DNA of 55,432 bases, from positions 1 to 55,432 of IMG/VR virus record IMGVR_UViG_3300047378_000870; one strand, written 5' to 3'. Shown in pieces: positions 1 through 15,638 of this stretch (positions are counted from its first letter, which is position 1; each line of letters begins with the position of its first letter). This DNA is from a virus (Duplodnaviria > Caudoviricetes). The notes under the pieces are model-generated. The model ran no database searches. It was not told where the DNA came from and saw only the letters and a list, made by a program, of their open reading frames with translations. The translations under genes were made by a program, and so were the position numbers.

Positions 1-897
1 TGTTTGCTTTTCTTCTTTCAATAGCTCGGCATCTAAGTCCGAATATTGGTCTAGCATGTCCTCCAACAGTTCTACATCGAGGAAGTTAATATCTAACTCT
101 GTAAATTCGAGATAATCTCTTTCTAGTTCTTCTTCTGTGAGTAATTGCTCATCAAGAAAGTCTATGTCAAGAGGATTGAGATTCTTACTAGCATTGACAT
201 CAGTGTAAAACTCATCTAATGTCATACGTTCTTTGGGTGGGTTTATGATAAGTATATTATCAAGCATGTCTAGCGTTAGGTCTAGAATAGCTGGATTGCT
301 AGGAGGCATCTCCATGACAGATGTGGTTGTAGATTGAAAGGGCTTGTTCAATATAACCTCACCTGCCATGGTTGAGACAATGATTTCTCCAGATGATATA
401 CCATTAACATCAGGAAGGAGTATGACGAGAGTGCGTCCAAACTCATCAACAGTAACAGTAAAGTCAGTTCCCCGTATGCCGATTGCGGCAGTTGGAGTTC
501 TCAACCTAATGTTTTCCTTCTCGATAGTTCCTAACTTACCTGTGATAAAACGCGCTGTTCCTTGGGCAAAAGTCATCGCGAGGTCAGACTTTTTCGGATC
601 ATCATCGAATACCACATTGTCTATAACGATACGTGTGTGTTCAGTCATGCGCAATTTGCTTTCATCAACAAACCGCACTTGCATACGACCTTCGCCAGTG
701 CGGAGATCGTCTTTGGAAATTACGTCAGAACCTTTAGCGGGTTCTAACTCTTTCTCCTCCCGAACTATTTGTCGCCAGCCGACAGCCCTATCGACTAGCC
801 CAACATCCTTACTGGCAGCCTGTTGCTGTGCCAGAATCAGATTGACTAATACAAATGTCAGAAGATGTAGTCGATGTGCCTGAACCTGTAACTTCAA
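1..897 (-). CDS. FecR-domain exported protein (3' end runs off the window)
   Basis: Not in the ORF track. Manual translation from TTG at 897 gives MKLQVQAHRLHLLTFVLVNLILAQQQAASKDVG...DLRTGEGRMQVRFVDESKLRMTEHT...IRLRTPTAAIGIRGTDFTV, a FecR-type signature after a signal-peptide-like N-terminus. An in-frame TGA lies just upstream of the TTG. Confidence 0.8.
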   Translation of the reverse strand, partial: MKLQVQAHRLHLLTFVLVNLILAQQQAASKDVGLVDRAVGWRQIVREEKELEPAKGSDVISKDDLRTGEGRMQVRFVDESKLRMTEHTRIVIDNVVFDDDPKKSDLAMTFAQGTARFITGKLGTIEKENIRLRTPTAAIGIRGTDFTVTVDEFGRTLVILLPDVNGISSGEIIVSTMAGEVILNKPFQSTTTSVMEMPPSNPAILDLTLDMLDNILIINPPKERMTLDEFYTDVNASKNLNPLDIDFLDEQLLTEEELERDYLEFTELDINFLDVELLEDMLDQYSDLDAELLKEEKQT

Positions 898-1543
898 TGC
901 TCAAAGTATCCTTCTGTAATGTTGATTGTTGGTCGATCGTGAGGTCGTTATAATTACCAGCACCTAAGATCGTATGTTCGTGACCGTCATAGCCATCGAG
1001 GTCGATGGTAAGACTGTTGTTGTCACCAGTCCAATCAATATCACTTGTTGCACTACCAACATCGATTTCAACATCAGCTGAGTTGAAGTCACCGTCGACA
1101 GCCCAATCAAGGTCTAAGTATCCAGCTGCGTCGTTAGTTCCGACATCAAGGTCAGCTGTGTTGTTTCCACCTGTGATACTGATAACATAATCGCCATTAC
1201 TAGCACCAAAAGTGTTAGTTGGATCGACACTAAGATTCAGTGTGTTTGTGTTTCCATCGATGTCAAGGTCAAAGTTAATATCGTCACCGACAATATTACC
1301 CAGAACTTTGTTTGTGTCACCGACTGCATCGATACTAAGATTGATGTTGTCCCCATCAATCAGCATCTTTGTGTCGTCAGTGTCATTTGCACCAATTTTG
1401 TTTCCGTCACCGTCTTGAGTAACGTCGATATCTACACCAGAACCTACTTGGTCAATATAGATCGCATTATCAGCCCATACAGGCGATGTCCCTGCGTTTA
1501 CGAGGAACAGCATTACAAAGATTCGTTTATGTAACGTGTTCAT
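809..1543 (-). CDS. Curlin-like (CsgA/CsgB-like) secreted repeat protein
   Basis: Signal peptide ending VWA, then NAIYIDQVG..IDVTQDGDGN and many xDxxGxxN repeats; directly downstream of csgG. Confidence 0.75.
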   Translation of the reverse strand: MNTLHKRIFVMLFLVNAGTSPVWADNAIYIDQVGSGVDIDVTQDGDGNKIGANDTDDTKMLIDGDNINLSIDAVGDTNKVLGNIVGDDINFDLDIDGNTNTLNLSVDPTNTFGASNGDYVISITGGNNTADLDVGTNDAAGYLDLDWAVDGDFNSADVEIDVGSATSDIDWTGDNNSLTIDLDGYDGHEHTILGAGNYNDLTIDQQSTLQKDTLSIEVTGSGTSTTSSDICISQSDSGTATGCQ

Positions 1544-2355
1544 TAGTTTACTCCGTTGTATGTCCAGAAGCCTAGAGCATTGCCCCGCTCAATCACTTCT
1601 AAGACGCCAGTTTCAATTGCTCTTTGCGTGGCAATCGATACGCTTTCATTACGAGCAACGCCTGACTCTATTTCGACGAGTTCAGTTCCTTGCTCGATAA
1701 ACTTAAATACATCCCCACCGTATGCCGTGGATAGTATAGTTTTGCTTGCTATCACTTCAAGCAACACTTCGCCAGTCGCTACACTCACAAGACGAATGTT
1801 TATCGTCACTGTGTCTCGACTGAATTCCCTACTAGATCCGATACCGAGATATCTTGCTCCAGCACCACCAGAATCAATGGCATGGTCGTAACCAACTATA
1901 CCACCTGTGATAATCATACCTGCAAAGGTAAGAGCAGGAAGTTTCTTCGCACCCTCACCTTTATAACTCTGTCGCGTCTGTCTAATCAACTGACGCTCTT
2001 TGGTCAGATCGTCCAACACTTGGCGATCGATGACTCTAAAAAACTTTCCTTCAGCTGCACGTGTCAATGCCCTTATCAGATATACATCTGGAGCCTGTGT
2101 AACTGCAGTGCTAAATGACGTTCCGCCACTAGCGTTTTGTTTCTTCTGTCCCGTCTGATCAGTGAATCTATACACTGCTACAGATGGCTGTCTTATTGGG
2201 GGATGTATGTCTTTCAGCTGTTGTTCAAGTAATGTTAGTTGAACCGTTGCTTTCTCGACAACAGGTATCTCCCAGTCCTTCCCACTCCAGGAAGTGCAAC
2301 TAGATACCAAAGTCCCCAATAGGAACAGTAATGACAGTGACTTTACCCGTTTCAT
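1543..2355 (-). CDS. csgG: Curli secretion channel lipoprotein CsgG
   Basis: Lipobox LVSSC; motifs VAVYRFTDQTGQ, FSTAVTQ, LTKERQLIR, GGAGARYLGIG, VSVATGEVL. Confidence 0.93.
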   Translation of the reverse strand: MKRVKSLSLLFLLGTLVSSCTSWSGKDWEIPVVEKATVQLTLLEQQLKDIHPPIRQPSVAVYRFTDQTGQKKQNASGGTSFSTAVTQAPDVYLIRALTRAAEGKFFRVIDRQVLDDLTKERQLIRQTRQSYKGEGAKKLPALTFAGMIITGGIVGYDHAIDSGGAGARYLGIGSSREFSRDTVTINIRLVSVATGEVLLEVIASKTILSTAYGGDVFKFIEQGTELVEIESGVARNESVSIATQRAIETGVLEVIERGNALGFWTYNGVN

Positions 2356-2821
2356 CGGTGATTGTCAACTCCACTTCTTCGTCATCTTTGACATATACTA
2401 TGCCTGTGCCTTCAATATCAAAAGATCCCTCGTTCTGAGGATTCTCTCCGAACATATTCTCAACTAACTGCCTAGATAAAGTAGAATAGATTCTGCTTTC
2501 AACATTCCGTATAAATTTTGCGAGCGTTGTATTTTTAGCGTCTCTTTCAGCTTGTTTTGCTAGGTCTTCGATTTCTTGTTTCAATGCTTCTTTGCGAGAT
2601 GTTTCTTGATTTTCAATTGTTAGGTAGTGTGAAGATTGGTTCACACCATTAAATGATGGTGAGTTAAATCCAAACTCCTTTGGTGCACTCATAGCATCTG
2701 TTGCCCAGAATACTATAACACCAACTGCTACACCAGCGATAAACGCCTTCCACAAATCTACGCCTGACCAGATATTTGGTCCAACTGATTTACGAAGCAT
2801 GTCTTTACTCTTCTGTTTCAT
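2300..2821 (-). CDS. csgF: Curli assembly protein CsgF
   Basis: FGFNSPSFNG after a hydrophobic segment, ESRIYSTLSRQL, C-terminal ITDETGKVTVITVP; adjacent to csgG. Start uncertain (ATG 2821 chosen). Confidence 0.85.
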   Translation of the reverse strand: MKQKSKDMLRKSVGPNIWSGVDLWKAFIAGVAVGVIVFWATDAMSAPKEFGFNSPSFNGVNQSSHYLTIENQETSRKEALKQEIEDLAKQAERDAKNTTLAKFIRNVESRIYSTLSRQLVENMFGENPQNEGSFDIEGTGIVYVKDDEEVELTITDETGKVTVITVPIGDFGI

Positions 2822-3056
2822 CTTCCTGCCTCTTAACTTCAATCGCCGTATCTAATTTTTGTTGTAGTCGGATAATGTCGTTATCCAACATACGAATACG
2901 GTCTATCAATCCTATGAGAGTTGTGTGCGCTGCTCCGAGACTTGTTTCGATCTTCTCTGTGATGGTTTTCCATACAAAGTAAATCATATACAACATGCCT
3001 ACAGCTGCCACGATTGGGAAGCCAAAGTCTTTGATGGCTGTTACTACATCCATCAA
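2805..3056 (-). CDS. Small membrane protein, YvrJ/holin-like (GFPI motif, TM, coiled coil)
   Basis: DFGFPIVAAVGMLYMIYFVW TM segment followed by an amphipathic helix; paralog of the neighbouring gene. Confidence 0.6.
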   Translation of the reverse strand: MMDVVTAIKDFGFPIVAAVGMLYMIYFVWKTITEKIETSLGAAHTTLIGLIDRIRMLDNDIIRLQQKLDTAIEVKRQEDETEE

Positions 3057-3334
3057 TCTCTCCTTGCGTCAGTTTTACCGTCGGCTCGGGATATTCTATT
3101 GAGGTCAGGTCGGATCCCTAACACAACACACATGGTCGTATCGAGACGAATCAGGTCGTGATTCATAGTCTTGACACGATTATCCAGTGCACCCACGATT
3201 CCGTGAATACCCTTCACTTGGTCAACCACACCAGCCATGATATATTTGAGGGTAAGGAACATGAAGAAGCCGCCAATGAGTGCGGCTGCGATAGGAAACC
3301 CCAACTCACCGATGAGGTTCATTACTTCAGTCAT
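3053..3334 (-). CDS. Small membrane protein, YvrJ/holin-like paralog
   Basis: ELGFPIAAALIGGFFMFLTL TM; LDNRVKTMNHDLIRL parallels LIDRIRMLDNDIIRL. Start placed at ATG 3334 after a purine-rich tract; the ORF track starts at 3373. Confidence 0.6.
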   Translation of the reverse strand: MTEVMNLIGELGFPIAAALIGGFFMFLTLKYIMAGVVDQVKGIHGIVGALDNRVKTMNHDLIRLDTTMCVVLGIRPDLNRISRADGKTDARRD

Positions 3335-3361
3335 TTTCTCTCTCTTTGCACCACATTTATC

Positions 3362-3390
3362 TTGACATTTCAAGCATAATATAGTAGAAC
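3362..3390 (+). promoter_or_regulatory. Putative sigma70-type promoter for the rightward island
   Basis: TTGACA (3362-3367), 17 nt, TAGAAC (weak -10); SD AAGGAGG upstream of ATG 3412. Confidence 0.5.
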
Positions 3391-3398
3391 TATTTATA
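3391..3398 (-). promoter_or_regulatory. T4-type late promoter driving the curli-like operon
   Basis: TATTTATA on + equals TATAAATA on -, intergenic, pointing into the csg genes. Confidence 0.7.
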
Positions 3399-3411
3399 AG
3401 GAGGACTAATT

Positions 3412-3756
3412 ATGACACATACTATTCAACGCTCTGTGCCTGTTTACAAGCATAAGCAGAAGAAAAAACCAGGACATGCAAAGGCGAAGGCAGAACATGA
3501 GAAATTTTTGGCGAAAATGGGTTTATCTGATGTTGGTTCTCGCGTTGCTAAACGCGGTTCTGTGGTGGAACTACCTAGCCGCATGGAACGACGAGGAGTT
3601 CAGACCTCCGATACCATACCCGCATCAGCTGGAAAAAAAGATTCTAACGTATATACAGGGGATCTGATTAAGGGTATTGCTACTATGCATAAATCTAATG
3701 CAGTGCCTGTGATAAATAAAGAGCAGGCAACCGATATTAGTAATATGAGAAGATAG
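3412..3756 (+). CDS. Conserved T4-like phage hypothetical protein (basic)
   Basis: Strong SD; C-terminal YTGDLIKGIATMHKSNAVPV motif recalled from T4-like phage hypotheticals. Confidence 0.65.
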   Translation: MTHTIQRSVPVYKHKQKKKPGHAKAKAEHEKFLAKMGLSDVGSRVAKRGSVVELPSRMERRGVQTSDTIPASAGKKDSNVYTGDLIKGIATMHKSNAVPVINKEQATDISNMRR

Positions 3757-4373
3757 TGGAAATCAAAGCCGAGACCCTTGCAGACTGGATGAAGTTCATT
3801 CGGTTTCACCCCGACCTTGCTGAAAGATTTATGGACTGTTTCTGGGAGAGTCAACTCACCAGTAAGAGTCACTTGTTATATGCGCTCGAGGATTTTACCG
3901 ATCTGGGTAATGTTTATATTTTCGGTGGATGGTATGGTATCCTCGGAAAGTTATTAGAAGATTCATACAACTTACAAACACAAGTTATCGTCTCTATCGA
4001 TAAAGATCCAGTATGTGATTGGGTGATACGCAATCTATACAGCCAGCCGAGTAAGGTTGTTGGGTTCACGCATGACATGCAACACTTCCAGTATTCAGAA
4101 GAACACCCTCCACATACTGTGATTAACACCAGCACTGAGCATGTAACTCAAGAGGTATATGAGACTTGGTGGAAAAATATACCAGCAGGAACTTTGTATG
4201 CATTGCAAGGTAATAATTTCTGGGATGACCCAGAACATATTAGGTGTGCGCATGATATTGAAGAATTTAAAAAGATTAATTTGTGTGAGAATGTCCAGAC
4301 CGAGTTTTCATTCCCATGCGGTGGTCCAAATAATTCCGAGTTCCAGAGGTTTATGGTTGTTGGTGTAAAATGA
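3756..4373 (+). CDS. SAM-dependent methyltransferase-like protein
   Basis: VYIFGGWYG motif I, SIDKD motif II, VINTSTEH. Confidence 0.65.
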   Translation: MEIKAETLADWMKFIRFHPDLAERFMDCFWESQLTSKSHLLYALEDFTDLGNVYIFGGWYGILGKLLEDSYNLQTQVIVSIDKDPVCDWVIRNLYSQPSKVVGFTHDMQHFQYSEEHPPHTVINTSTEHVTQEVYETWWKNIPAGTLYALQGNNFWDDPEHIRCAHDIEEFKKINLCENVQTEFSFPCGGPNNSEFQRFMVVGVK

Positions 4374-5089
4374 TTACATTGATCACAACTTATTTTGAAG
4401 ACCCTCATCGTTTAGAACATTATCTTGAAAATGCATTCAATGAAGATGTATTCGATGAGTTTATTATCGTTGATGATGGTTCTCCGAATACACCAGCATA
4501 TGACATTGTAAAAAAATACATTAATAAAAACGTATCACTTTTTAGGGTAAAAGATGATATTGGATTCAACTCACACGGTGCTAGAAACTTAGCAATGAAG
4601 CATGTTAATACTGAGTGGGCATATATGGTAGATATAGATAGAGGGGATATCTTTGATTACTCTAAAATATTGCAAAGATACTGCCTGACAGCAAAAGATG
4701 ATGAATATTTCATTTCTCATTTAGAACATAAAGGTGAAGTGACACATAACGATTATTGCGTCAGAACAAAAAGTTGGTGGACTAGCGGTGGGTATGATGA
4801 AGAGTTCACTAATTACCATTTTGGCGATAGGATGTTTATAGATCGTTTAAATTTATTTTTGAAACCCACAATTATCCCTTATTGTATTAAATCAACCAGA
4901 GAAGCCAGAAAATTTGAGTATTATGATGGCTCTAAAACTGTATATCCCGATGATGATACTGTCATTCATCCTCATGTAGATAAGAAAAAATTGAAAGAGA
5001 TAATTGACAAGGTTGGCATGCGTAATGATAATCCTAATCTATGGCGAAGAGATAATATAATTCAGTTTGAATGGGAACAGTTATTATGA
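4370..5089 (+). CDS. Glycosyltransferase family 2 (GT-A)
   Basis: FIIVDDGS, GARNLAM, DID (DxD), GGYDEEF. Confidence 0.85.
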   Translation: MITLITTYFEDPHRLEHYLENAFNEDVFDEFIIVDDGSPNTPAYDIVKKYINKNVSLFRVKDDIGFNSHGARNLAMKHVNTEWAYMVDIDRGDIFDYSKILQRYCLTAKDDEYFISHLEHKGEVTHNDYCVRTKSWWTSGGYDEEFTNYHFGDRMFIDRLNLFLKPTIIPYCIKSTREARKFEYYDGSKTVYPDDDTVIHPHVDKKKLKEIIDKVGMRNDNPNLWRRDNIIQFEWEQLL

Positions 5090-6483
5090 GTGATCTAGAT
5101 AGGGCATTAATGCTTCGTGATGCGATGAATGATGTTTTTAGTGAAACTTTTTGTTTTGCTAAGTGGTATCACACAACTATCTACTTGCACACAGGTATGA
5201 CACATTCTTGTTATCATCCTGCACCACACAAGATACCTCTAGAGGGTCTTGATAAAAACCCCAGCCAGCTTCATAATACACCGCATAAAAAACAAGAACG
5301 AAAACAGATGTTGACTGGTGAGCGTTGTGTCGGTTGCCAGTATTGTTGGAATGTTGAAGATATGGGAGAGGATTATATTTCCGACCGTGTTATAAGGTCA
5401 GCATCTCTTTGGAAAGAAGGACGCAAAAAAGAAATACAGGATAATCCTTGGGACTTCGATGTAAACCCTGATTATATTGAATTGGCATTTAGTAATGAAT
5501 GCAATTTTAAATGTGGGTATTGTCACCCCATATCAAGTTCTTCATACACGCAAGAGATTAAGAAGTTTGGTCCATATGATATGGTTGAGAACCACAGACT
5601 TGATATTGATTGGTTCAAGCCATTTGACGAGGGTGATAATCCATATATTAAAGCATGGTGGGAGTGGTGGCCAGAGGTTTCAAAAACTTTGAGAATTCTA
5701 CGGCTGACAGGCGGCGAACCGTTGATGCATAAATCTACTTGGCGTTTGTTTGAGGAGTTACATAGAAATCCATTACCACACCTTGAGTTAAATGTAAACA
5801 GCAATATGGGTGTGAAAACTGCATTTGTTGAAAACCTAGCTGCAAATGTAAATCTAATCAGAGAGAAAAATGCTGTCAAACAGTTTGCTCTTTATACAAG
5901 TATTGATTGTTGGAATGAACGAGCAGAATATATTAGAACAGGTCTGGACTTAGAGTTGTGGGAAAAGAATATCGATATCTTCGCAACACAAGCTAAGACT
6001 CCAATCAATCTTATGATTACCTTCAATGCTCTTACTGTATCTACTTTTAAGTCTCTTCTTGAAAAGATTTTAGAATGGCGTAAGAAGTATGATGGTGTTA
6101 TCATTCCCACAAGCGACTCACAAAGAACTATTCGCTTCGATACACCATATCTAAAAGAACCCTTGCATTATGATATGAATATCTTGCCGAAAGACGAGTT
6201 CATGCCATATATGACCGAGTGTCTCGAATATATAGAGTCTAATGTCGATGACAATGACCCAACTATGTTTCAAACAGTTGAGTATGAGAAGTTTCGTCGT
6301 GTCCATGATTATATGAAGACAAGCGACTATGGTGAAGAAAAAATTAACGAAGGTCGTAAAGACTTTTACAATTGGTTTAATGAGTATGATAAGAGAAGAA
6401 ATACAAACTTCTTAGAGACGTTTCCCGAATATGAAGATTTTTATAACAGGTGTCGCAGGATTTCTGGGCAGTCATCTAGCTGA
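5086..6483 (+). CDS. Radical SAM protein with N-terminal twitch/SPASM-like Cys cluster
   Basis: CNFKCGYC (CxxxCxxC), LTGGEP; N-terminal FC..KW..SCYH..CVGCQYCW. Start at ATGA overlap with the GT2 stop. Confidence 0.88.
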   Translation: MSDLDRALMLRDAMNDVFSETFCFAKWYHTTIYLHTGMTHSCYHPAPHKIPLEGLDKNPSQLHNTPHKKQERKQMLTGERCVGCQYCWNVEDMGEDYISDRVIRSASLWKEGRKKEIQDNPWDFDVNPDYIELAFSNECNFKCGYCHPISSSSYTQEIKKFGPYDMVENHRLDIDWFKPFDEGDNPYIKAWWEWWPEVSKTLRILRLTGGEPLMHKSTWRLFEELHRNPLPHLELNVNSNMGVKTAFVENLAANVNLIREKNAVKQFALYTSIDCWNERAEYIRTGLDLELWEKNIDIFATQAKTPINLMITFNALTVSTFKSLLEKILEWRKKYDGVIIPTSDSQRTIRFDTPYLKEPLHYDMNILPKDEFMPYMTECLEYIESNVDDNDPTMFQTVEYEKFRRVHDYMKTSDYGEEKINEGRKDFYNWFNEYDKRRNTNFLETFPEYEDFYNRCRRISGQSSS

Positions 6484-7456
6484 TAGATTTTTAGCGGATG
6501 GACATACAGTAGTTGGTGTTGATAACCTCATTGGTGGTTTTGTCCGCAATGTCCACGATGATGTGAAATTTACTAAAGCAGATTGTCGCGATCAGAATCT
6601 TATGAAGTTTCTGATTGATGACTCAGATGTAGTTGTCCATGCAGCTGCTACAGCACACGAAGGGCTGTCAGTATTCAGCCCATCTTTCATCACCAAGAAT
6701 ATCTATGAAGCGAGTGTCTCGATGATAAGCGCATCGATCGCTGCTGGTGTTAGGAGGTTCGTGTTTTGCTCAAGTATGGCACGTTATGGTAATCAAGGGT
6801 TGCCTCGCGATAGTGGTGTTCATATTGAGTTTAGAGAACACATGAAACCACAACCCGAAGATCCATATGGCATTGCTAAAGTTGCAGTCGAACAAACTCT
6901 CAAGATGCTGGCGGATTTGCATGGCATGGAATGGAATATTGCTGTTCCTCATAATATTGTCGGTGAGCGTCAACGCTACGATGACCCATATAGAAATGTT
7001 TTGAGTATTATGGCTAACCGCAACCTACAAGATAAACCATCTATCATTTATGGTGATGGTGAGCAGATGCGTTGTTTCTCATATGTAGGTGATTGCGTTG
7101 ATTGTTTAGAAAAGATGGTAACTGATCATACGATAAGAAGTGAAATCATTAATATTGGACCAGATGAAAACCCTATCACTATAAACGAAGCAGCTAAATT
7201 GGTAGCGAAAGCAGCTGGTGCTAACTCTCCGCCGATATATTATCCTGATAGACCACAAGAGGTAAAGATCGCTACATGTAGCAGTGATAAAGCAAGAAAA
7301 CTATTGGGGTATGAGACAAAGACCACCACAGAGGAAGCCATACAAAAGACTGTAGATTACATCAAACAGAATGGACCAAGACCCTTCGATTATAACTACA
7401 ATTTAGAAATAGTAAATGATTTGACACCTGTCACTTGGAAAGATAGGTTGATGTAA
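6431..7456 (+). CDS. NAD-dependent nucleotide-sugar epimerase/dehydratase
   Basis: ITGVAGFLGS, catalytic YGIAK, GDGEQMRCFSYV. Confidence 0.92.
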   Translation: MKIFITGVAGFLGSHLADRFLADGHTVVGVDNLIGGFVRNVHDDVKFTKADCRDQNLMKFLIDDSDVVVHAAATAHEGLSVFSPSFITKNIYEASVSMISASIAAGVRRFVFCSSMARYGNQGLPRDSGVHIEFREHMKPQPEDPYGIAKVAVEQTLKMLADLHGMEWNIAVPHNIVGERQRYDDPYRNVLSIMANRNLQDKPSIIYGDGEQMRCFSYVGDCVDCLEKMVTDHTIRSEIINIGPDENPITINEAAKLVAKAAGANSPPIYYPDRPQEVKIATCSSDKARKLLGYETKTTTEEAIQKTVDYIKQNGPRPFDYNYNLEIVNDLTPVTWKDRLM

Positions 7457-8637
7457 TGAATTTTATGTTTGAAGATTTTTCCACTATGGAAAATTTTATT
7501 GGAAGCGACACGTATGTTAATTCTTGCCAGAGTAGATTTCAAATATGCCCAATGATTAATACAATGTTGAGACAACAACAAGTATCAGATATAATTACAC
7601 ATACAAATAGCAATTATCTGATTCCTGTTGGGGTGAATGGATCTATACAACAGTGGGCGAAAGGTGATTGCACGCATCGGGCAGGGTCGCGCTTCCCGAA
7701 ACGCAGTGGGGCAGACTCTCTGTTTAATTACCTGAGTGATAAGTATCTCGTAGATATGAGAGAGGGTCGCGCAATACTCTTAATTGATTTCTCTCTTGAA
7801 GGTTATCATGAAGACTGGTTGTTTGAATGGTTTCACGATCAATTTAAACTTTTTAATATACCTGCTGCTTCAGTTGTTTATACAGTTGGTAATACGTTGA
7901 TTGCTGAACAATATGAAGAATACTCTAAATCCCTGCCAGAAAAAATGAAATGTATTCCATATACAGGATTTGAAGAATTTATATACACAGTTTCGGCAAA
8001 GCAAGAGCAAATAACAGTAGATAAACATATAGAGTATAAAGAGAATAATGAAACTTGGGCGTTTAACTGCCCTCAAAAAAGAGCAAGACCGCACAGAAAA
8101 CAATTTTTTAAATTACTCAAACAATATAATCTAGTTAACAGAAACTTATGTAGTTTTCCCGATGAAGGAAATTTTATCTTAGGTGAAGAGCACGAAAAAG
8201 AAACAGGGTTTTACATTAATAGAATACATCCTGATTACTGCCTAAAGACCTTTGTAACGGTTGTGAGCGAACCTCAATTTTATGAGGCAGAATTATCTGT
8301 CTTTAACAGTGAAAAGGTGTTTAAGCCAATCGCTTGTTCTCACCCATTCATAGTATTGGGTGGCAAGGGATCTTTACAAAAAATGAGAGATAGAGGTTAT
8401 AAAACCTTTTCAGATTACTTTGACGAATCTTATGACGAACTACCAGATACTATGAGAATGGAAGCGATTATTGATGTTTTATATGAAATTGAATCTATAA
8501 AAGATAAGGTTGAATGGTTTGAATCAATGAGACCCATTTTAGAACATAATAAAAAGCAACTAAAGATAAATTCTACAAAGCCTGATGTTGCCGTTGTAGA
8601 ATTGGAAAAATATTATAAGGAGTATTTTGGTGAGTAA
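7456..8637 (+). CDS. Hypothetical protein with GT-B/GT10-like C-terminus
   Basis: SEKVFKPI..HPFIVLG...GYKTFSDYFDESYD resembles the fucosyltransferase-like SEK motif. Confidence 0.45.
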   Translation: MNFMFEDFSTMENFIGSDTYVNSCQSRFQICPMINTMLRQQQVSDIITHTNSNYLIPVGVNGSIQQWAKGDCTHRAGSRFPKRSGADSLFNYLSDKYLVDMREGRAILLIDFSLEGYHEDWLFEWFHDQFKLFNIPAASVVYTVGNTLIAEQYEEYSKSLPEKMKCIPYTGFEEFIYTVSAKQEQITVDKHIEYKENNETWAFNCPQKRARPHRKQFFKLLKQYNLVNRNLCSFPDEGNFILGEEHEKETGFYINRIHPDYCLKTFVTVVSEPQFYEAELSVFNSEKVFKPIACSHPFIVLGGKGSLQKMRDRGYKTFSDYFDESYDELPDTMRMEAIIDVLYEIESIKDKVEWFESMRPILEHNKKQLKINSTKPDVAVVELEKYYKEYFGE

Positions 8638-9469
8638 ATTATTCATCGGAATTGGTGATAGCTTCACACAGGGTCAAGGATCTGTCTCTGATCAGACATA
8701 TGAAGAGTATGGTCGCGAAGTATATAATTCTACACATAGATTACCCATCGATAAGTTTGAAAGAGAAAACAGTTGGGTGAGTGTAATCTGTCGAGATTAC
8801 TTGGATGATTTCACTCCTTTAAACTTGGGTGAAAAGGGAAGAGGTAATAGGGCTTCTGTGAAGGAATTGTATCTCAATGACATAGATCCAGACATAGAGA
8901 AGATCGTGGTTTTTGCTCTCAGTGGTATGGAAAGATTTGATTTCCCACAGAGAGATAAAAACTTTCAACAACATCATTTTTATGCGATGTTCCCTAATCC
9001 ATGGGACAAAAATGCAACACATGCGTCACTTTGGAAGGCATATGCTGATCACGTCTATAGTGAGCAATTTTGTGTTATTGAGACAATGCTGAATATCTTA
9101 GAAGCGCAGACTTGGTGTAAAGCAAATAATGCTAAGTTGGTAATCGTATCTGCATTTGATATGCGTATCACAAAAGAATATTTCATCGATAATCTTCCTG
9201 GATTAAAAAAAGAGCTTGTTAATCAAATACATTGGGATAAGTTTTTCTATCCACAAGGTTATAGAACTCTGATGCACATGCTTATTGACAAACAAGAAAA
9301 TGATTCTAAATATGCCTTTGACCTAGCACATGGCGGGTATTTTGATCGATATAGTAAACTGGAAAGGTCTGATGGATATATCACCCCGTGTGCACATCCA
9401 AGCGAGATCGGACATAAATTAATTGCTGAAGTTCTGTATCAACATTTAGAAGAGAAATCCTATGCATGA
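8627..9469 (+). CDS. SGNH/GDSL hydrolase-fold protein (putative acyltransferase/esterase)
   Basis: GDSFTQG, NLG..GRGN, C-terminal HPSEIGH. Confidence 0.75.
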   Translation: MVSKLFIGIGDSFTQGQGSVSDQTYEEYGREVYNSTHRLPIDKFERENSWVSVICRDYLDDFTPLNLGEKGRGNRASVKELYLNDIDPDIEKIVVFALSGMERFDFPQRDKNFQQHHFYAMFPNPWDKNATHASLWKAYADHVYSEQFCVIETMLNILEAQTWCKANNAKLVIVSAFDMRITKEYFIDNLPGLKKELVNQIHWDKFFYPQGYRTLMHMLIDKQENDSKYAFDLAHGGYFDRYSKLERSDGYITPCAHPSEIGHKLIAEVLYQHLEEKSYA

Positions 9470-10280
9470 AGTTATTAGACCTAAAGACTTAAATTTTTTA
9501 GATGAAAATGATTTACTGCCAGGAACATTTCCTACATATAACAATCCTGATGACCCTGAAAAAATTGATGTTAGATTCGCTGGAACTGACAATCCAACCA
9601 GTTATGAAAAGAATATGAGGGATCCTGCATTTCGTAAAAAGTGGGAATCCCAACCAATTACATATCGTGTTAATAGTAATGGATATCGTTGTGAAGAGTT
9701 TAGTAAGATTGACTGGGAAAATTCAGTTGCGATAATTGGCGACTCTTGTGTTTATGGCATGGGTGTTCCCAGAACTCATGTTGTAAGTTATCTTTTAGAA
9801 CGAATGATTGGCAGAACAGTAATTAATCTAGGTGTTGGTGGCTGCAGTAATATGTTTATAATGTATAATAATATGAAACTATTGCAAAAATATAGACCAT
9901 GGGCTGTGATTAATATTTGGACTGCACCTGAAAGAATGACATTATTTCAAAAACCTAAAGCTGGTTTCACAGGTGTCAGACATATAGGTTCTTGGGATGA
10001 ACATAATGTAAGTTATCAGAAATTCTGGCTACATAGTGAAGGCAATTATTTAGGACACACCAAGATGTGTCAGGATGTTTGCGCACAACTAAATAGAGAT
10101 AATAGGTATTTAAGTTATACACCGAGGCAGTTCAGTTTAAATAAAGATAGTGAATTTCCATTTTTTGGTGGAGCAGCGAGGGATAAATTACATCCCGATA
10201 AGTTTACTTATAAAATGCAAGCGCGTTACATAAAAGAGGATTTTATCAGAAATGGTTGGTTTGTTGAAGAAGATAATTAA
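9462..10280 (+). CDS. SGNH/GDSL hydrolase-fold protein
   Basis: YRVNSNGYR, GDSCVYGMGV, INLGVGGCSN, DKLHP. Confidence 0.75.
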   Translation: MHEVIRPKDLNFLDENDLLPGTFPTYNNPDDPEKIDVRFAGTDNPTSYEKNMRDPAFRKKWESQPITYRVNSNGYRCEEFSKIDWENSVAIIGDSCVYGMGVPRTHVVSYLLERMIGRTVINLGVGGCSNMFIMYNNMKLLQKYRPWAVINIWTAPERMTLFQKPKAGFTGVRHIGSWDEHNVSYQKFWLHSEGNYLGHTKMCQDVCAQLNRDNRYLSYTPRQFSLNKDSEFPFFGGAARDKLHPDKFTYKMQARYIKEDFIRNGWFVEEDN

Positions 10281-10356
10281 TAAGTGGAAAACTAAAAGAG
10301 AATTGAAAAAACGTATTAAAGAACTAAGAAAAAGAGATCCGTTCATTTATGATTAG
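10252..10356 (+). CDS. 34-aa basic peptide upstream of the carbamoyltransferase
   Basis: Manual translation MVGLLKKIINKWKTKRELKKRIKELRKRDPFIYD*; it overlaps both neighbours. Confidence 0.65.
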   Translation: MVGLLKKIINKWKTKRELKKRIKELRKRDPFIYD

Positions 10357-11791
10357 TTGGGGTGTTGCAGCAGGAACTCATGATGGTTCATTAGCTGTTA
10401 TTGATGATGATAAAATTCTTTTTGCAAGTCACACGGAAAGATATAGTCGTGTGAAAAATGACGCACACCTAAACAAAGAAATACTCGATGCAGCTCTTAA
10501 ATACGGAGAACCATCTGAAATTTTCTGGTATGAAAAACCAGTGTTGAAAGCCTTGCGCAAATTATATGCAGGTCAATCTAACTTGTGGATGAATCCACGA
10601 GAATATCTCAAATCTTATGGGATAAATCAAAGGAATATAAAATATGTCAAACATCATGACTCTCATGCAGCGGCTGGGTTCGCAACTTCTAAATTTAACT
10701 CTGCTGCCGTTCTTGTTATTGATGCTATTGGTGAGTTCACCACTACTTCTATATCATTATATAAAAGTGAAACAGGCAGTCGCCACAGCAGTCAATGCCT
10801 TTTTAAACGATCCTACCCATGGTCGTTAGGTCTATTCTACTCAGCTATTACTGATAGAGCAGGGCTAAAACCCAACGAAGAAGAATATATCCTTATGGGT
10901 ATGTCAGCATATGGTCGCACTAATTGGGTCAACGAAATGCGTCATATGATAAGAACAGGATTTAACTTTCATAAAGGTTGTAGAAGTTTTTTCCCAGATG
11001 CAGATTCATTCGATCTTGCGAAGTCTGCTCAAATAGTATATGAAGAAGAATTTATAAAGTTAGTTAAGAAAGCTAAAGAACTAACTGGTGAAGATAACCT
11101 TGTTGTTATGGGAGGCTGTGCACTTAATTGTCTTGCTAATACATTGGCATTCGAACATTTTGATAATGTTTGGATAATGCCTAATCCTGGGGATGCTGGT
11201 AGCTCTATCGGAGCTTATGCGGCAGGAACAGGTAGGATGCTAGACTGGAAGACACCATATCTTGGAGAGGACATCGGGAATGGTAAATACCCAGTAAAGC
11301 AAGCTCTGGGAGAGCTATTGCAAAATAAAATTGTGGGAGTGGCGAGCGGACGAGCCGAGTTTGGTCCAAGAGCATTGGGCAATCGTAGTCTGCTCGCCGA
11401 TCCAACAGGTCAAGAAATGAAAGACGTTGTCAATAAAATTAAGAAGCGTCAAGAGTTTCGTCCCTTTGCTCCTGTTATCTTACAATCAGACGTTCATAAA
11501 TATTTTAATGTTAAGCGTGGATTTTCTAGTCCATACATGCAATATATTGTCACAGCAAAAGATCCTGATCAGTATCCAGCAATTGTGCATGCAGATGGGA
11601 CGAGCCGAGTTCAGACTGTGACAAAAGAACAACATCCAGGATTATGGCGACTGTTGCAACAGTATAAGAAGCATACAGGAACACCGATGTTACTGAATAC
11701 ATCCCTTAATATTAAGGGAGAACCAATGGTAAACACGAGGTTAGATGCTAATAATTTTGAAAAAACTTACTCGGTAAAAGTTGTTTCTTAA
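10349..11791 (+). CDS. Carbamoyltransferase (NodU/CmcH/TobZ family)
   Basis: HDGS, ERYSRVKND, HHDSHAA, GGCALNC, AEFGPRALGNRS, KKRQEFRPFAP, LLNTSLN. Confidence 0.95.
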   Translation: MISWGVAAGTHDGSLAVIDDDKILFASHTERYSRVKNDAHLNKEILDAALKYGEPSEIFWYEKPVLKALRKLYAGQSNLWMNPREYLKSYGINQRNIKYVKHHDSHAAAGFATSKFNSAAVLVIDAIGEFTTTSISLYKSETGSRHSSQCLFKRSYPWSLGLFYSAITDRAGLKPNEEEYILMGMSAYGRTNWVNEMRHMIRTGFNFHKGCRSFFPDADSFDLAKSAQIVYEEEFIKLVKKAKELTGEDNLVVMGGCALNCLANTLAFEHFDNVWIMPNPGDAGSSIGAYAAGTGRMLDWKTPYLGEDIGNGKYPVKQALGELLQNKIVGVASGRAEFGPRALGNRSLLADPTGQEMKDVVNKIKKRQEFRPFAPVILQSDVHKYFNVKRGFSSPYMQYIVTAKDPDQYPAIVHADGTSRVQTVTKEQHPGLWRLLQQYKKHTGTPMLLNTSLNIKGEPMVNTRLDANNFEKTYSVKVVS

Positions 11792-11802
11792 TAAATAAAA
11801 AT

Positions 11803-12102
11803 ATGACGGCGAAGGTTATTAACTTTCCGAAGCGGTTTCAGAAGACTACACAACTGGGATTAGCAATTCGGCTTTATACTGAGGAAGAAGTGCATCTAGT
11901 ATTACACTGCCTCAATTCCTTCGGCGCACACTCACAAAAATACATACAGTCAGACTTGAGGTCGATAGACCCTGAGTATGCAATACAATGCATCAAGACA
12001 GCATTAGATAGTTATTTGCTTTCGTCAGACGCGAAGGCACTTATCAGCTACATTATGGGAAATGTCGTGAAGGTGATGCCTGCAAAAGGAGGCTCTGCAT
12101 AA
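11803..12102 (+). CDS. Hypothetical protein
   Basis: 99-aa ORF filling the gap; late-like AATAAATA at 11790-11797. Confidence 0.55.
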   Translation: MTAKVINFPKRFQKTTQLGLAIRLYTEEEVHLVLHCLNSFGAHSQKYIQSDLRSIDPEYAIQCIKTALDSYLLSSDAKALISYIMGNVVKVMPAKGGSA

Positions 12103-12136
12103 TATATCTTTAACCCCTAAATTATAAGGTCTATAA

Positions 12137-12889
12137 ATGTCCAGAAGAAAAACAAATCTTCAATTAATACAGGATGATACAACCTCTAGCAAAAAAGGAA
12201 ACAATAGACTAATACCTCGGCTCAATGACCTCGATGTTTTTGACCCCCTAACACCTACCCAAAAATCGTTCTTTGATACTTATGAGAACGCCCAAGCGAT
12301 GCTTTTACATGGTTCAGCAGGAACTGGTAAAACTTTCATCGCTCTCTATAAAGCACTTGAACAAGTGCTAGAAAAATCAAACACCTTCGATAAAGTTGTA
12401 ATCTGTCGTTCTGCAGTGGCATCAAGAGATATTGGTCACCTGCCTGGAAATGAAGTAGAGAAAACTGAAGTGTTTATGCGCCCATACATTGATATGTGCC
12501 AAGAATTTTTCCCCGACAAACAGCAAGCATTTGAACGCCTACAGGAAGCAAAGAAGGTTGATTGGATGATCACTTCATTTGTTCGAGGCATTACACTTGA
12601 CGACGCTATCATTATCGTTGACGAATGTCAGAATATGAACGACATGGAACTCAACTCAATTATGACACGCATCGGTCAAAGAAGTAAAATCATATTTGCT
12701 GGCGACTTCAAACAGTCCGATCTCTATGCTAAGAGAAACGATATGTCGGGGCTACAAAAATTTATGGTTATCGCTGAGTTGATGCCATCATTTAAAATAT
12801 TTGAGTTCACACCTGATGATATTGTAAGAAGCGATCTCGTTAAAGAATATATAGTAGCGAGAGAAAAATACGAACAAGAATACGCTTGA
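12137..12889 (+). CDS. phoH: PhoH-like ATPase
   Basis: GSAGTGKT Walker A, IGHLPG, RGITLDD, IVDECQN, GDFKQSDL, DIVRS. Confidence 0.95.
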   Translation: MSRRKTNLQLIQDDTTSSKKGNNRLIPRLNDLDVFDPLTPTQKSFFDTYENAQAMLLHGSAGTGKTFIALYKALEQVLEKSNTFDKVVICRSAVASRDIGHLPGNEVEKTEVFMRPYIDMCQEFFPDKQQAFERLQEAKKVDWMITSFVRGITLDDAIIIVDECQNMNDMELNSIMTRIGQRSKIIFAGDFKQSDLYAKRNDMSGLQKFMVIAELMPSFKIFEFTPDDIVRSDLVKEYIVAREKYEQEYA

Positions 12890-12914
12890 CTTTTTTAATT
12901 ATCTAGGTTATATT
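12886..12914 (+). promoter_or_regulatory. sigma70-type promoter
   Basis: TTGACT, 17 nt, TATATT; ATG 5 nt after the -10 box. Confidence 0.65.
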
Positions 12915-12919
12915 ATATT

Positions 12920-15312: not shown

Positions 15313-15315
15313 TTG

Positions 15316-15346: not shown

Positions 15347-15349
15347 GAG

Positions 15350-15626: not shown

Positions 15627-15638
15627 AACTACTTTATT

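What the first reader, a model, noticed from the sequence alone, without database searches (positions are those of the whole stretch)
1..3398. Late-expressed phage curli/T8SS-like operon with a FecR-domain partner
Seen: a tightly overlapping minus-strand operon (two GFPI membrane proteins, csgF, csgG, curlin-like protein, FecR protein) with TATAAATA upstream and no csgE, csgC or csgD in the window. Known: CsgG/CsgF form the outer-membrane curli pore; csgF/csgG have been reported in some marine myophages without a demonstrated function; FecR domains relay signals across the periplasm. Inference: the phage builds an envelope-spanning secretion and possibly signalling device late in infection, for example to aggregate cells, block superinfection, aid release or sense contact.
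Basis: partly seen in the sequence, partly recalled or inferred. Interest (0 to 1): 0.85.

Follow-up and report, generated by a model that had tools for sequence, protein, structure and literature searches.

The report
Known pelagiphage curli-secretion module, new copy
This is one more copy of a gene cluster already described in marine T4-like phages, which pairs a curli-type outer-membrane secretion pore with a FecR-domain protein and a membrane cyclase; its function has still not been tested.

Summary
Window 1-3398 (minus strand) carries, behind a TATAAATA motif, six overlapping genes: two small paralogous membrane proteins, CsgF, CsgG, an Asp-rich curlin-repeat protein and a secreted FecR-domain protein cut by the contig end.

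The cluster is not new. The same gene order is annotated in Pelagibacter phage HTVC008M and Methylophilales phage Melnitz. It is described in three papers, one of which names FecR and an adenylate cyclase as parts of it.

In 36 related viral loci every part is present wherever the contig reaches.

- The small proteins carry no kinase domain.
- The FecR-domain model resembles anti-sigma periplasmic signalling domains.
- In Alphaproteobacteria, 8 of 20 CHASE2 cyclase loci have a FecR gene nearby, some with an outer-membrane barrel.
- The promoter motif recurs upstream in 28 of 34 loci.
- No CAP-type cAMP receptor was found in the phages.

Verdict: a new member of a known kind, of moderate-to-low interest. 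Function remains inferred.

The parts
3391..3398 (-). TATAAATA, a T4-type late-promoter-like motif 57 nt upstream of the first gene of the module
   Evidence: 12 in the window against 4.29 expected. The same motif lies within 150 nt upstream of the first small gene in 28 of 34 related loci. Its function as a late promoter is inferred from what is known of T4-like phages.
3053..3334 (-). Small membrane protein 1 (93 aa): one N-terminal hydrophobic helix with a GFPI motif, then a C-terminal helix and a basic tail
   Evidence: KD19 maximum 2.06 at residues 11-29. PHROG 18771 at 2.6e-31, and holin PHROG 4898 only at 0.0018. No Pfam family at E<=0.1.
2805..3053 (-). Small membrane protein 2 (82 aa), a paralogue of protein 1 (21% identity, same architecture)
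   Evidence: PHROG 18771 at 3e-25 and holin PHROG 4898 at 1.4e-4. No histidine-kinase family among the 25 shown of 30 Pfam families matched at E<=5 by 38 family members; YvrJ matched 9 of 38, best 0.025.
2300..2821 (-). CsgF homologue (173 aa from the ATG at 2821) with a long signal or anchor region and a conserved F-x2-P-x-F-x-G N-terminal peptide
   Evidence: Pfam CsgF 3.2e-16, profile positions 22-132 of 132. PHROG 35372. F52, P55 and F57 are invariant in 21 homologues. No direct sequence match to solved CsgF.
1543..2355 (-). CsgG homologue (270 aa), with a lipoprotein-type signal ending in VSSC
   Evidence: Pfam CsgG 2.8e-45. E. coli CsgG structures match at 3.8e-38 over residues 42-265. 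46% identity to HTVC008M CsgG.
809..1543 (-). Curlin-repeat-like secreted protein (244 aa; mature part 18% Asp, no Arg, pI 4.05), predicted to be a beta-solenoid
   Evidence: Curlin_rpt 14.9 bits; 18.4 bits alone and 23.5 summed. AlphaFold2 pLDDT 79.2, pTM 0.75, with 16 strands in a strand-turn-strand pattern. Recurring invariant G..N motifs. Composition.
1..897 (-). FecR-domain periplasmic protein, the first 299 of about 371 residues; the C-terminus is lost at the contig end
   Evidence: Pfam FecR 1.1e-11. Alignment with 24 full-length relatives shows about 72 residues missing. The model of the L007 orthologue matches anti-sigma periplasmic domains 4m0h/4m0n and the PupR domain 6ovk at E about 1e-5.

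Best explanation
The region is the promoter-proximal five and a half genes of the 'viral T8SS/curli module' already described in T4-like pelagiphages. The window is a fragment of such a myophage.

Shown here: the gene order is late-promoter motif, two paralogous single-pass inner-membrane proteins, CsgF, CsgG, an Asp-rich curlin-repeat beta-solenoid, and a secreted FecR-domain protein. In relatives an optional second curlin-like or nuclease gene and a CHASE2-class III adenylate cyclase follow. The module travels as one unit.

Inferred mechanism:
- The module is transcribed late from the TATAAATA promoter.
- CsgG, CsgF, the curlin-like protein and FecR cross the inner membrane by Sec.
- CsgG forms the outer-membrane channel, and CsgF docks in it through its conserved N-terminal peptide.
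- The curlin-like subunit is secreted and folds or polymerises on the surface of the infected cell.
- The FecR-domain protein stays in the periplasm. Like the homologous domain of anti-sigma regulators it acts as a protein-protein link, working with the CHASE2 cyclase so that an envelope or secretion state is turned into cAMP.

I rate the identity as this known module at about 0.9, the secretion role at about 0.5, and the FecR-cyclase coupling at about 0.45. The biological pay-off (aggregation, exclusion of other phages, timing of lysis) is not resolved.
For: Identity:
- Pfam and PDB matches for CsgF, CsgG and FecR.
- The same gene order is annotated in HTVC008M and Melnitz.
- The literature describes CsgF, CsgG, CsgA/B, FecR, a second CsgA/B and an adenylate cyclase in podo- and myo-pelagiphages.

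Unit character:
- Counts in 36 IMG/VR loci (about 24 distinct at protein level): CsgF 35, curlin 35, FecR 35, s2 33, s1 32, cyclase 30. All misses but one (L036, which lacks s1/s2 homologues) lie at contig ends.
- All 10 of 10 MAG contigs found with the FecR profile carry the whole module.
- L007 shares the window's divergent neighbour genes and continues with a 371-aa FecR protein and a 608-aa CHASE2+Guanylate_cyc protein.

Secretion:
- The CsgF N-terminal peptide keeps F52, P55, F57 and G59 with the spacing of F26, P29, F31 and G33. F26D and F31D abolish CsgG binding in E. coli. The mapping by spacing is my inference.
- The curlin-like protein gives a confident beta-solenoid model.

FecR-cyclase coupling:
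- All 20 top alphaproteobacterial CHASE2 loci encode full-length homologues of the phage cyclase (E 1e-99 to 1e-140), and 8 of the 20 have a FecR-domain ORF in the fetched flanks, within about 7 kb of the CHASE2 match.
- Three genomes show a triad of CHASE2 protein, TPR/beta-barrel protein and FecR protein.
- FecR-CHASE2 kinase operons are reported in Burkholderia.
- A FecR-domain gene lies in the cyaD1 locus of S. meliloti.
- The FecR fold matches the PupR cell-surface signalling domain.

Promoter.

RNA-library contigs at 99% identity or more lie on the module in 2 runs of 2 studies. Relatives at 90-99% do so in 2 further runs. This is consistent with transcription but is not proof of it.
Against: - No functional test exists for any part.
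- Curlin_rpt is sub-threshold in hmmscan. Foldseek found only generic beta-helices (best E 0.12) and no CsgA.
- Neither the CsgF protein nor its profile finds solved CsgF by sequence.
- Buchholz et al. saw no clumping of Melnitz-infected cultures and modelled a divergent CsgF.
- In S. meliloti the FecR-domain gene smc02177 was not needed for perception of the signal that activates the CHASE2 cyclases. This argues against a co-sensor role.
- The 20 best alphaproteobacterial FecR matches had no CHASE2 neighbour by tblastn (0 of 20), and 12 of 20 CHASE2 cyclase loci had no FecR in the fetched flanks.
- No CAP-type cNMP-binding domain was found in 5 of 5 module-bearing phage genomes, and it was found in only 2 of 31 genomes of the family of a Pelagibacter MAG. 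The cyclase product therefore has no identified reader.
- The host of this phage is unknown, and the cyclase itself is not in the window.
Confidence: 0.6

Rival explanations
1. Lysis-timing device. CsgG (with or without CsgF) acts as a pinholin- or secretin-like pore, and the two small holin-like membrane proteins help to time or trigger lysis. This is the proposal made for Melnitz.
For: The two small proteins match holin PHROG 4898 weakly (1.4e-4 and 0.0018) and have a holin-like build, with one N-terminal helix and a charged C-terminal helix. A late-promoter motif sits directly upstream. Buchholz et al. argue for this from models and synteny.
Against: - The holin match is weak. The strong match is to PHROG 18771 of unknown function.
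- CsgG carries a lipoprotein signal for the outer membrane, not the inner one.
- The idea does not explain the conserved secreted beta-solenoid, the FecR protein or the cyclase.
- The CsgF N-terminal docking peptide is conserved, against the suggestion that CsgF no longer binds CsgG.
Confidence: 0.15
2. FecR serves the secretion system and not the cyclase. It would be a periplasmic chaperone or gate for the curlin-like subunit, standing in for the missing CsgE, CsgC or CsgH.
For: The FecR gene overlaps the end of the curlin-like gene by 89 nt and is present in 35 of 36 loci, against 30 of 36 for the cyclase. Wittmers et al. report the cyclase less often than FecR in podoviruses. CsgE and CsgC are absent. 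The protein has a very acidic linker and a C-terminal beta region.
Against: All six loci without a cyclase end at or near FecR, so the lower count is an edge effect here. FecR-domain genes sit near CHASE2 genes in cells that show no CsgF or curlin profile match (8 of 20 against 0 of 20).
Confidence: 0.15
3. Uptake pore with iron sensing. The ungated CsgG channel imports nutrients or siderophores, and FecR acts as a ferric-citrate-type regulator. This is one option raised by Wittmers et al. and Zaragoza-Solas et al.
For: CsgE, the periplasmic gate, is absent. The Pfam name of the domain is FecR. The papers discuss this option.
Against: - The protein has a signal peptide followed directly by the FecR domain, and no other Pfam domain. 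It therefore lacks the cytoplasmic anti-sigma part.
- No STN signalling domain was found in 5 of 5 phage genomes.
- The only sigma-region-2 matches are weak and lie far from the module.
- A plain pore needs neither CsgF nor a curlin-like substrate, yet both are conserved.
Confidence: 0.07
4. Decaying cargo with no function for the phage.
For: None beyond the lack of experimental data.
Against: All ORFs are intact and the gene order is conserved at 52-92% CsgG identity in 36 viral loci and 10 MAG contigs. The small-protein family alone has at least 7999 clusters in metagenomes.
Confidence: 0.03

Closest known systems
Pelagiphage T8SS/curli module (Pelagibacter phage HTVC008M, Methylophilales phage Melnitz, HTVC023P-type podophages; PMC7029224, PMC9004378, PMC9599517)
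   Same: Same genes in the same order: two small genes, CsgF, CsgG, curlin-repeat protein, FecR, then in relatives a second curlin-like gene and a CHASE2 adenylate cyclase. The host phage is T4-like, with baseplate and gp32 homologues.
   Different: Protein identity to the isolates is only 33-50% (CsgG 46% to HTVC008M). In this lineage the module points away from a sugar-modification gene island, whereas in the isolates it follows gp32. The closest relatives go straight from FecR to the cyclase, or insert an SNase-type nuclease gene where the isolates have a second curlin gene. The genes that the 2022 paper calls 'histidine kinase' correspond by position to 82-93-aa proteins with no kinase domain. 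I could not see that paper's figures or supplements.
E. coli curli secretion channel CsgG-CsgF with subunits CsgA/CsgB
   Same: CsgG aligns with solved CsgG over 224 residues at E 3.8e-38. The CsgF family match is above the cut-off, with an N-terminal F-x2-P-x-F-x-G peptide. The secreted repeat protein has Q-x-G-x-x-N-type repeats and a beta-solenoid model.
   Different: No CsgE, CsgC or CsgD. The subunit is Asp-rich (18%) and lacks Arg. Only the first repeats resemble Curlin_rpt. The CsgG loop before the FSTAV segment has a 2-residue insertion. FecR, the cyclase and the two small membrane proteins have no counterpart in the E. coli operon.
Cell-surface signalling anti-sigma regulators (FecA-FecR-FecI; PupB-PupR)
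   Same: The FecR-domain model superposes on the PupR C-terminal cell-surface signalling domain (6ovk) and on a Bacteroidetes anti-sigma periplasmic domain (4m0h, 4m0n) at E about 1e-5 over about 141-146 columns. In those systems this domain links an outer-membrane protein to an inner-membrane signal transducer.
   Different: There is no cytoplasmic anti-sigma domain and no membrane anchor; a signal peptide takes their place. No STN-domain transducer and no adjacent ECF sigma factor were found. The neighbouring transducer is a CHASE2 cyclase.
Cellular FecR-domain / CHASE2-receptor loci (S. meliloti cyaD1-smc02177; Burkholderia 'BiofilmReg' LysM-FecR + CHASE2 kinase; alphaproteobacterial loci found here)
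   Same: A secreted FecR-domain protein is encoded beside a CHASE2 receptor. The alphaproteobacterial CHASE2 cyclases are full-length homologues of the phage cyclase. In three genomes an outer-membrane-barrel-like protein completes a triad.
   Different: No CsgF or curlin-like profile match was found in the 20 cellular loci (0 of 20); CsgG was not searched there. The cellular outer-membrane partner, where present, is a TPR/Slam-like or ShlB-type barrel. In S. meliloti the FecR-domain gene acts downstream of the cyclase and is not needed for sensing.

Membership tests
Type VIII (curli) secretion system | CsgG outer-membrane lipoprotein channel | tested here: met
   Pfam CsgG 154.7 bits against a cut-off of 20.8. 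Solved E. coli CsgG matches at 3.8e-38. The signal ends in VSSC; reading this as a lipobox is from my own knowledge.
Type VIII (curli) secretion system | CsgF with the N-terminal peptide that docks in CsgG | tested here: met
   Pfam CsgF 60.1 bits against a cut-off of 25.8, covering profile positions 22-132. F52, P55 and F57 are invariant and G59 nearly so, with the same spacing as F26, P29, F31 and G33 of enterobacterial CsgF. N28 is Ser in 16 of 21 and Asn in 5 of 21. There is no direct hit to solved CsgF, so binding itself is inferred.
Type VIII (curli) secretion system | Secreted curlin-repeat subunit (CsgA/CsgB type) | tested here: inconclusive
   Curlin_rpt scores 14.9 bits, below the cut-off of 20.7; 18.4 alone and 23.5 summed over the frame. 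The beta-solenoid model has pLDDT 79.2. Foldseek finds only generic beta-helices, best E 0.12.
Type VIII (curli) secretion system | Accessory CsgE, CsgC and regulator CsgD (gammaproteobacterial operons) | tested here: not met
   0 of 5 phage genomes for PF10627, PF10610 and PF00196, with the E. coli control positive. According to PMC9599517 these are also absent from alphaproteobacterial operons, so they do not define the system outside Gammaproteobacteria.
Type VIII (curli) secretion system | Formation of extracellular amyloid fibres | not testable with these tools
   Needs Congo red or ThT binding, EM or cryo-ET. Buchholz et al. report no clumping in Melnitz cultures.
FecR-type anti-sigma regulator (FecIRA cell-surface signalling) | Periplasmic FecR domain | tested here: met
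   PF04773 scores 45.5 bits against a cut-off of 24. The fold matches 6ovk, 4m0h and 4m0n at E about 1e-5.
FecR-type anti-sigma regulator (FecIRA cell-surface signalling) | N-terminal cytoplasmic anti-sigma domain plus membrane anchor, with a cognate ECF sigma factor and an STN-domain outer-membrane transducer | tested here: not met
   The full-length relative has PF04773 as its only Pfam domain, directly behind a signal-peptide-like N-terminus. STN was found in 0 of 5 phage genomes. Sigma70_r2 gives only weak matches far from the module. It is therefore not a ferric-citrate regulator.
CHASE2 receptor-type class III adenylate cyclase | CHASE2 periplasmic domain plus cyclase catalytic domain with intact catalytic residues | tested here: met
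   This holds for relatives only; the gene lies beyond the window's end. L007 scores CHASE2 113.6 bits and Guanylate_cyc 68.9 bits. D425, K469, D473, N550 and R554 are invariant and D541 nearly so in 20 sequences. Reading these as the metal, adenine-specifying and transition-state residues is from my own knowledge.
Sensor histidine kinase (label used in PMC9599517 for the gene or genes preceding CsgF) | HisKA/DHp and HATPase_c catalytic domains | tested here: not met
   The proteins are 82-98 aa long (116 aa in L032). No kinase family is among the 25 shown of 30 Pfam families matched at E<=5 by 38 members. None of the 120 listed homologues is named a kinase by a source, or carries a Pfam domain other than one unrelated entry. 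That these are the genes the paper means is inferred from position.
Phage holin | Small membrane protein family with demonstrated or curated holin membership | tested here: inconclusive
   PHROG 4898 'holin' matches at 1.4e-4 and 0.0018, against PHROG 18771 (unknown function) at 3e-25 and 2.6e-31. YvrJ is sub-threshold in 9 of 38.

The most novel reading that the evidence does not exclude
The module may be a phage-borne trans-envelope signalling device and not merely a fibre factory. The FecR-domain protein would couple the state of an outer-membrane translocon (here CsgG-CsgF and its surface beta-solenoid) to a CHASE2 receptor in the inner membrane.

This would be one case of a wider, undescribed triad of outer-membrane barrel, FecR-domain protein and CHASE2 receptor. 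In cells the triad uses Slam-like or ShlB-type barrels, including in a Pelagibacter-family genome.

The cAMP output would be read by a receptor that is not of the CAP type. Together with the two holin-like membrane proteins, it might set the timing of lysis or block superinfection in response to what touches the cell surface.
Probability: 0.2. Interest if true: 0.75.

Novelty: new member of a known kind. Interest (0 to 1): 0.3.

Why it matters
Phages of SAR11 and OM43 are among the most abundant viruses in the sea, and this module is widespread in them. The 2022 paper reports about 0.1% of assembled viral proteins, and the small-protein family alone has at least 7999 clusters. What it does to the infected cell is still unknown.

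This window adds one more divergent lineage and no new principle. Three corrections and leads are useful to others:
- The 'histidine kinase' and 'iron regulator' labels in print are not supported by domain content.
- FecR most plausibly belongs with the CHASE2 cyclase, as it does in alphaproteobacterial cells.
- No CAP-type receptor for the cyclase product is in sight.

If the trans-envelope signalling reading were right, it would give CHASE2, a sensor domain with no known ligand, a testable partner set.

Tried and rejected
- A near-identical DNA search of window 1-3500 against 50,697 phage records found nothing. Relatives were reached only at protein level.

- Complex prediction with the CHASE2 periplasmic domain (residues 20-305 of the L007 cyclase, alignment A3) and the FecR protein (residues 26-371, A2) gave the verdict 'no answer', score 0.00 in two runs, and the controls were not run. 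This is evidence neither for nor against binding.

- The CsgF protein and its profile against solved structures gave no CsgF hit, so the CsgF-CsgG docking argument rests on Pfam and on motif spacing.

- The FecR profile against solved structures by sequence gave 0 hits. Only the fold search helped. The full-length FecR model is poor (pLDDT 58.2); only residues about 60-200 are usable.

- The genome-contig scan with the FecR profile returned 10 contigs, all of which look like phage DNA binned into MAGs of at least seven different taxonomic labels. It therefore said nothing about cellular relatives.

- tblastn of the phage CHASE2 and cyclase halves against the flanks of the 20 best alphaproteobacterial FecR matches gave 0 of 20. 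I then turned the question round and started from CHASE2.

- ShlB-type barrels next to CHASE2 were found in G117 and in G113 contig 75 only. 8 of the 10 genomes tested had no ShlB match at all, so that association is not general. A profile of the TPR/beta-barrel protein hit 3 of the 20 CHASE2 loci (two of them its own sources) and no phage locus.

- One literature search for CHASE2 together with two-partner secretion terms listed no paper holding CHASE2 among the 12 shown.

- RNA-library contigs: parts of window 3800-6000 had no cover in three of four runs. This is not interpretable, and contigs cannot show strand, level or timing.

- The promoter/terminator consensus scan of 1-3600 gave nothing decisive.

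Fig. S3 and Data Set S1 of PMC9599517 may bear on which genes are called 'HK' and on expression.

Full report
WHAT IS THERE. The window is a 55,432-base IMG/VR viral contig, judged 34% complete. PHROG matches to baseplate hub and wedge proteins, the tail tube cap and a gp32-type single-strand-binding protein identify it as a T4-like myophage. At its left end, on the minus strand, lie six ORFs:
- two small proteins (93 and 82 aa from their ATGs);
- a CsgF homologue (Pfam E 3.2e-16);
- a CsgG homologue (E 2.8e-45);
- a 244-aa protein with a weak Curlin_rpt match (E 0.026, 14.9 bits, below the cut-off);
- a FecR-domain protein (E 1.1e-11) that runs off the contig.

The genes overlap or abut at every junction by 1, 17, 56, 1 and 89 nt. 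TATAAATA lies 57 nt upstream of the first ATG. The motif occurs 12 times in the window against 4.29 expected, and no shuffle of 100 reaches 12. By my reading, 11 of the 12 copies lie within 150 nt upstream of a same-strand ORF, several of them baseplate genes. CsgE, CsgC and GerE-type (CsgD) domains were not found in the window or in four related phage genomes, with the E. coli control positive.

IT IS A KNOWN MODULE. tblastn with CsgG finds Pelagibacter phage HTVC008M (46% identity) and four Methylophilales phage Melnitz records (44%). Their GenBank annotation shows the same order: two small hypothetical genes, CsgF, CsgG, curlin-repeat protein, FecR-domain or hypothetical protein, a second curlin-repeat or hypothetical protein, and an adenylate/guanylate cyclase. 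I read passages of three papers.
- Zaragoza-Solas et al. 2020 (PMC7029224) describe the csgF-csgG 'curli operon' of pelagimyophages and propose uptake or 'sibling capture'.
- Buchholz et al. 2022 (PMC9004378) propose a pinholin- or secretin-like role in lysis and saw no clumping.
- Wittmers et al. 2022 (PMC9599517) describe 'HK', CsgF, CsgG, CsgA/B, FecR, a second CsgA/B and an adenylate cyclase in podo- and myo-pelagiphages. They also report co-occurrence across ocean stations, an alphaproteobacterial origin and detection in metatranscriptomes.

CO-CONSERVATION. A scan of IMG/VR with the window's CsgG returned 36 loci at 52-92% identity, about 24 of them distinct at protein level. By tblastn, CsgF is present in 35 of 36, the curlin-like gene in 35, FecR in 35, small gene 2 in 33, small gene 1 in 32, and the cyclase in 30. 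Every miss lies at a contig or locus end, with one exception. L036 has a different 57-aa membrane/coiled-coil ORF in place of the small genes, and a second curlin-like gene runs off its end. L007 shares the window's divergent neighbours (470-, 239- and about 205-aa ORFs). It continues with a 371-aa FecR protein and a 608-aa protein with CHASE2 (113.6 bits) and class III cyclase (68.9 bits) domains. The window lacks about 72 C-terminal residues of FecR and, by inference, the cyclase gene. In L004 and L005 a staphylococcal-nuclease-type gene sits between FecR and the cyclase. Ten contigs from MAGs with at least seven different taxonomic labels also carry the whole module, 10 of 10. I read them as phage DNA binned into MAGs.

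THE PARTS.

CsgG aligns with solved E. coli CsgG over 224 residues (E 3.8e-38). It keeps the FSTAV segment of the loop that I recall forms the constriction, with a 2-residue insertion before it. Its signal ends in VSSC.

CsgF has no direct match to solved CsgF, but its Pfam match starts exactly at the mature N-terminus. In 21 homologues F52, P55 and F57 are invariant and G59 nearly so. A micropublication, whose first part I read (PMC12311626), reports that F24, F26 and F31 of enterobacterial CsgF are needed for binding CsgG, and that P29, G32 and G33 are invariant. The phage peptide F-x2-P-x-F-x-G has the same spacing. This mapping is my inference and not a tool alignment. It speaks against the suggestion that phage CsgF no longer docks in CsgG.

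The curlin-like protein has a signal peptide. Its mature part has 18% Asp, 9.5% Asn, 12% Gly, no Arg and a pI of 4.05. G..N motifs recur and are invariant. The AlphaFold2 model is confident (pLDDT 79.2, pTM 0.75) and consists of 16 strands in a strand-turn-strand pattern. Foldseek finds only generic beta-helices (best E 0.12) and no CsgA. It is a beta-solenoid that resembles curlin in its first repeats; whether it forms amyloid is not known.

The two small proteins are paralogues with an invariant G-x-P motif, one N-terminal hydrophobic helix and a C-terminal helix. They match PHROG 18771 (unknown function) strongly and a holin PHROG weakly. Among 38 family members no histidine-kinase family appears in the 25 shown of 30 Pfam families matched at E<=5, and YvrJ appears in 9 of 38 below threshold. 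A profile search found at least 7999 clusters in metagenomes. None of the 120 listed is named a kinase, and a few are 152-203-aa fused forms. By position these are the genes labelled 'HK' in the 2022 paper. I could not see its figures or supplements, but proteins of 82-98 aa (116 aa in L032) without kinase domains cannot be kinases.

FecR AND THE CYCLASE. The FecR protein has a signal-peptide-like N-terminus, the FecR domain, a very acidic Leu/Asp-rich linker and a C-terminal beta region. PF04773 is its only Pfam domain. The model is good only for residues about 60-200. That part matches the periplasmic domains of anti-sigma factors (4m0h, 4m0n) and the PupR cell-surface signalling domain (6ovk) at E about 1e-5. 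The phage genomes show no STN transducer (0 of 5), and the only sigma-region-2 matches are weak and distant; these are probably the T4-type late sigma. The protein is therefore not a ferric-citrate regulator. It carries the protein-protein interaction domain of such regulators.

In 20 phage cyclases the residues I know as the two metal Asp, the adenine-specifying Lys and Asp, and the transition-state Asn and Arg are invariant or nearly so, which fits an adenylate cyclase.

To ask whether FecR belongs with the cyclase, I searched Alphaproteobacteria.
- FecR-domain matches occur in 100 of 301 genomes, but only over the domain and at no more than 40% identity.
- The flanks of the 20 best showed no CHASE2 by tblastn (0 of 20).
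- Starting from CHASE2, which is present in 63 of 151 genomes, all 20 best loci encode full-length homologues of the phage cyclase (E 1e-99 to 1e-140). Eight of the 20 have a FecR-domain ORF in the fetched flanks, within about 7 kb of the CHASE2 match, and none has a CsgF or curlin profile match.
- In two of these loci, and in a 1.2-Mb genome of the Pelagibacter MAG's family (G117, where CHASE2 is fused to a SpoIIE phosphatase), a homologous protein of about 435-497 aa lies beside the pair. It has N-terminal TPR repeats, weak Slam-type matches and a C-terminal aromatic residue. G117 also has a ShlB/POTRA barrel 1.3 kb further on.
- The barrel profile hit one more cyclase locus and no phage locus. 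ShlB lay 2 kb from a CHASE2 gene in one further genome, but was absent from 8 of the 10 genomes tested.

Published cases agree in part. In Burkholderia a LysM-FecR protein sits in an operon with a CHASE2 kinase. In S. meliloti the FecR-domain gene smc02177 sits in the cyaD1-clr locus, but it was not required for perception of the activating signal.

The pairing of FecR with CHASE2 is thus a recurrent cellular arrangement, and the phage module looks like a curli core joined to such a pair. Whether FecR acts upstream or downstream of the cyclase is open. A co-folding job gave no answer (see Tried and rejected).

OUTPUT. No CAP-type cNMP-binding domain was found in five module-bearing phage genomes, among them one complete genome with terminal repeats. 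It was found in only 2 of 31 genomes of the family of a Pelagibacter MAG, while the control rang in 10 of 14 model genomes.

EXPRESSION. The TATAAATA motif lies within 150 nt upstream of the first small gene in 28 of 34 loci, or in 18 of 24 distinct upstream sequences. Melnitz has it and HTVC008M does not, and it often follows a terminator-like hairpin. In many loci it ends 5-6 nt before the ATG, which would give a nearly leaderless transcript. Contigs of four RNA libraries from four studies lie on the module. Two match at 99% identity or more (pieces on the small genes, CsgF and CsgG) and two at 90-99%. Such contigs can contain DNA and show neither strand nor timing, so this is only consistent with transcription and with the 2022 report.

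VERDICT. The finding is a new, divergent member of a known phage module. The best-supported mechanism is a late-expressed CsgG-CsgF outer-membrane channel that exports a phage beta-solenoid, coupled to a FecR/CHASE2 cyclase pair. The lysis-timing, chaperone and uptake readings are not excluded. The boldest reading still allowed is a general triad of outer-membrane translocon, FecR and CHASE2 for trans-envelope signalling, with the phage module as one instance. I put that at about 0.2.

Noticed in passing
L147 (G117:C1:316000-334000), ORFs 8049-10085, 10101-11408, 11405-12919, 14216-15934: A 1.2-Mb genome of the family of a Pelagibacter MAG has a chromosomal run of a CHASE2-SpoIIE phosphatase, a TPR/beta-barrel-like protein and a FecR-domain protein. 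An alternative oxidase gene and a ShlB/POTRA outer-membrane transporter follow.
   Followed up: partly
L004 7567-7962 and L005 8876-9310: In the two closest relatives of the window's module, a staphylococcal-nuclease-type gene (Pfam SNase, E about 1e-12) is inserted between the FecR and cyclase genes. L004 also has a 125-aa signal-peptide protein there.
   Followed up: no
L040-L049: Ten contigs in MAGs labelled Pelagibacter (2), Saprospirales, Synechococcus, Sphingobacteriales (2), Rhodobacterales, Planctomycetaceae, Flavobacteriaceae and 'bacterium' all carry the complete phage-type module. They are probably phage contigs binned into cellular MAGs, two of them 121 and 142 kb long.
   Followed up: partly
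window 22762-22769(-), 28422-28429(+); many loci: TATAAATA often ends only 5-6 nt before the start codon, for example in L014, L017 and L022 and at two sites in the window. If it is a T4-type late promoter, the transcripts would be nearly leaderless.
   Followed up: no
genomes G001, G306-G333 and others: The cNMP_binding domain (PF00027) was found in only 2 of 31 genomes of the family of a Pelagibacter MAG. At least one of these genomes (G117) has a CHASE2 receptor, and the phages bring a cyclase.
   Followed up: partly
window 3412-11791(+): Diverging from the module is an island with a radical SAM protein, a nucleotide-sugar epimerase and a Nol-like carbamoyltransferase. This looks like the sugar or LPS-modification hypervariable region described for pelagimyophages.
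   Followed up: no
L032 1366-1716; proteins P0002-P0006: One locus has a single 116-aa small membrane gene with a 22-residue insertion where others have two paralogues. Metagenomes hold 152-203-aa forms that score about twice as high, as if the two paralogues were fused.
   Followed up: no
L141 9350-11017: Directly downstream of an alphaproteobacterial FecR and CHASE2-cyclase pair lies an NDH-2-type oxidoreductase fused to a cNMP-binding domain. It may be a local reader of the cyclase product.
   Followed up: no
window 3416-3494: In RNA-library run X16, a 2249-nt contig of a relative (90-95% identity) replaces 77 nt of the promoter and divergent-gene start region with 83 other letters. This intergenic region therefore varies between strains.
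   Followed up: no
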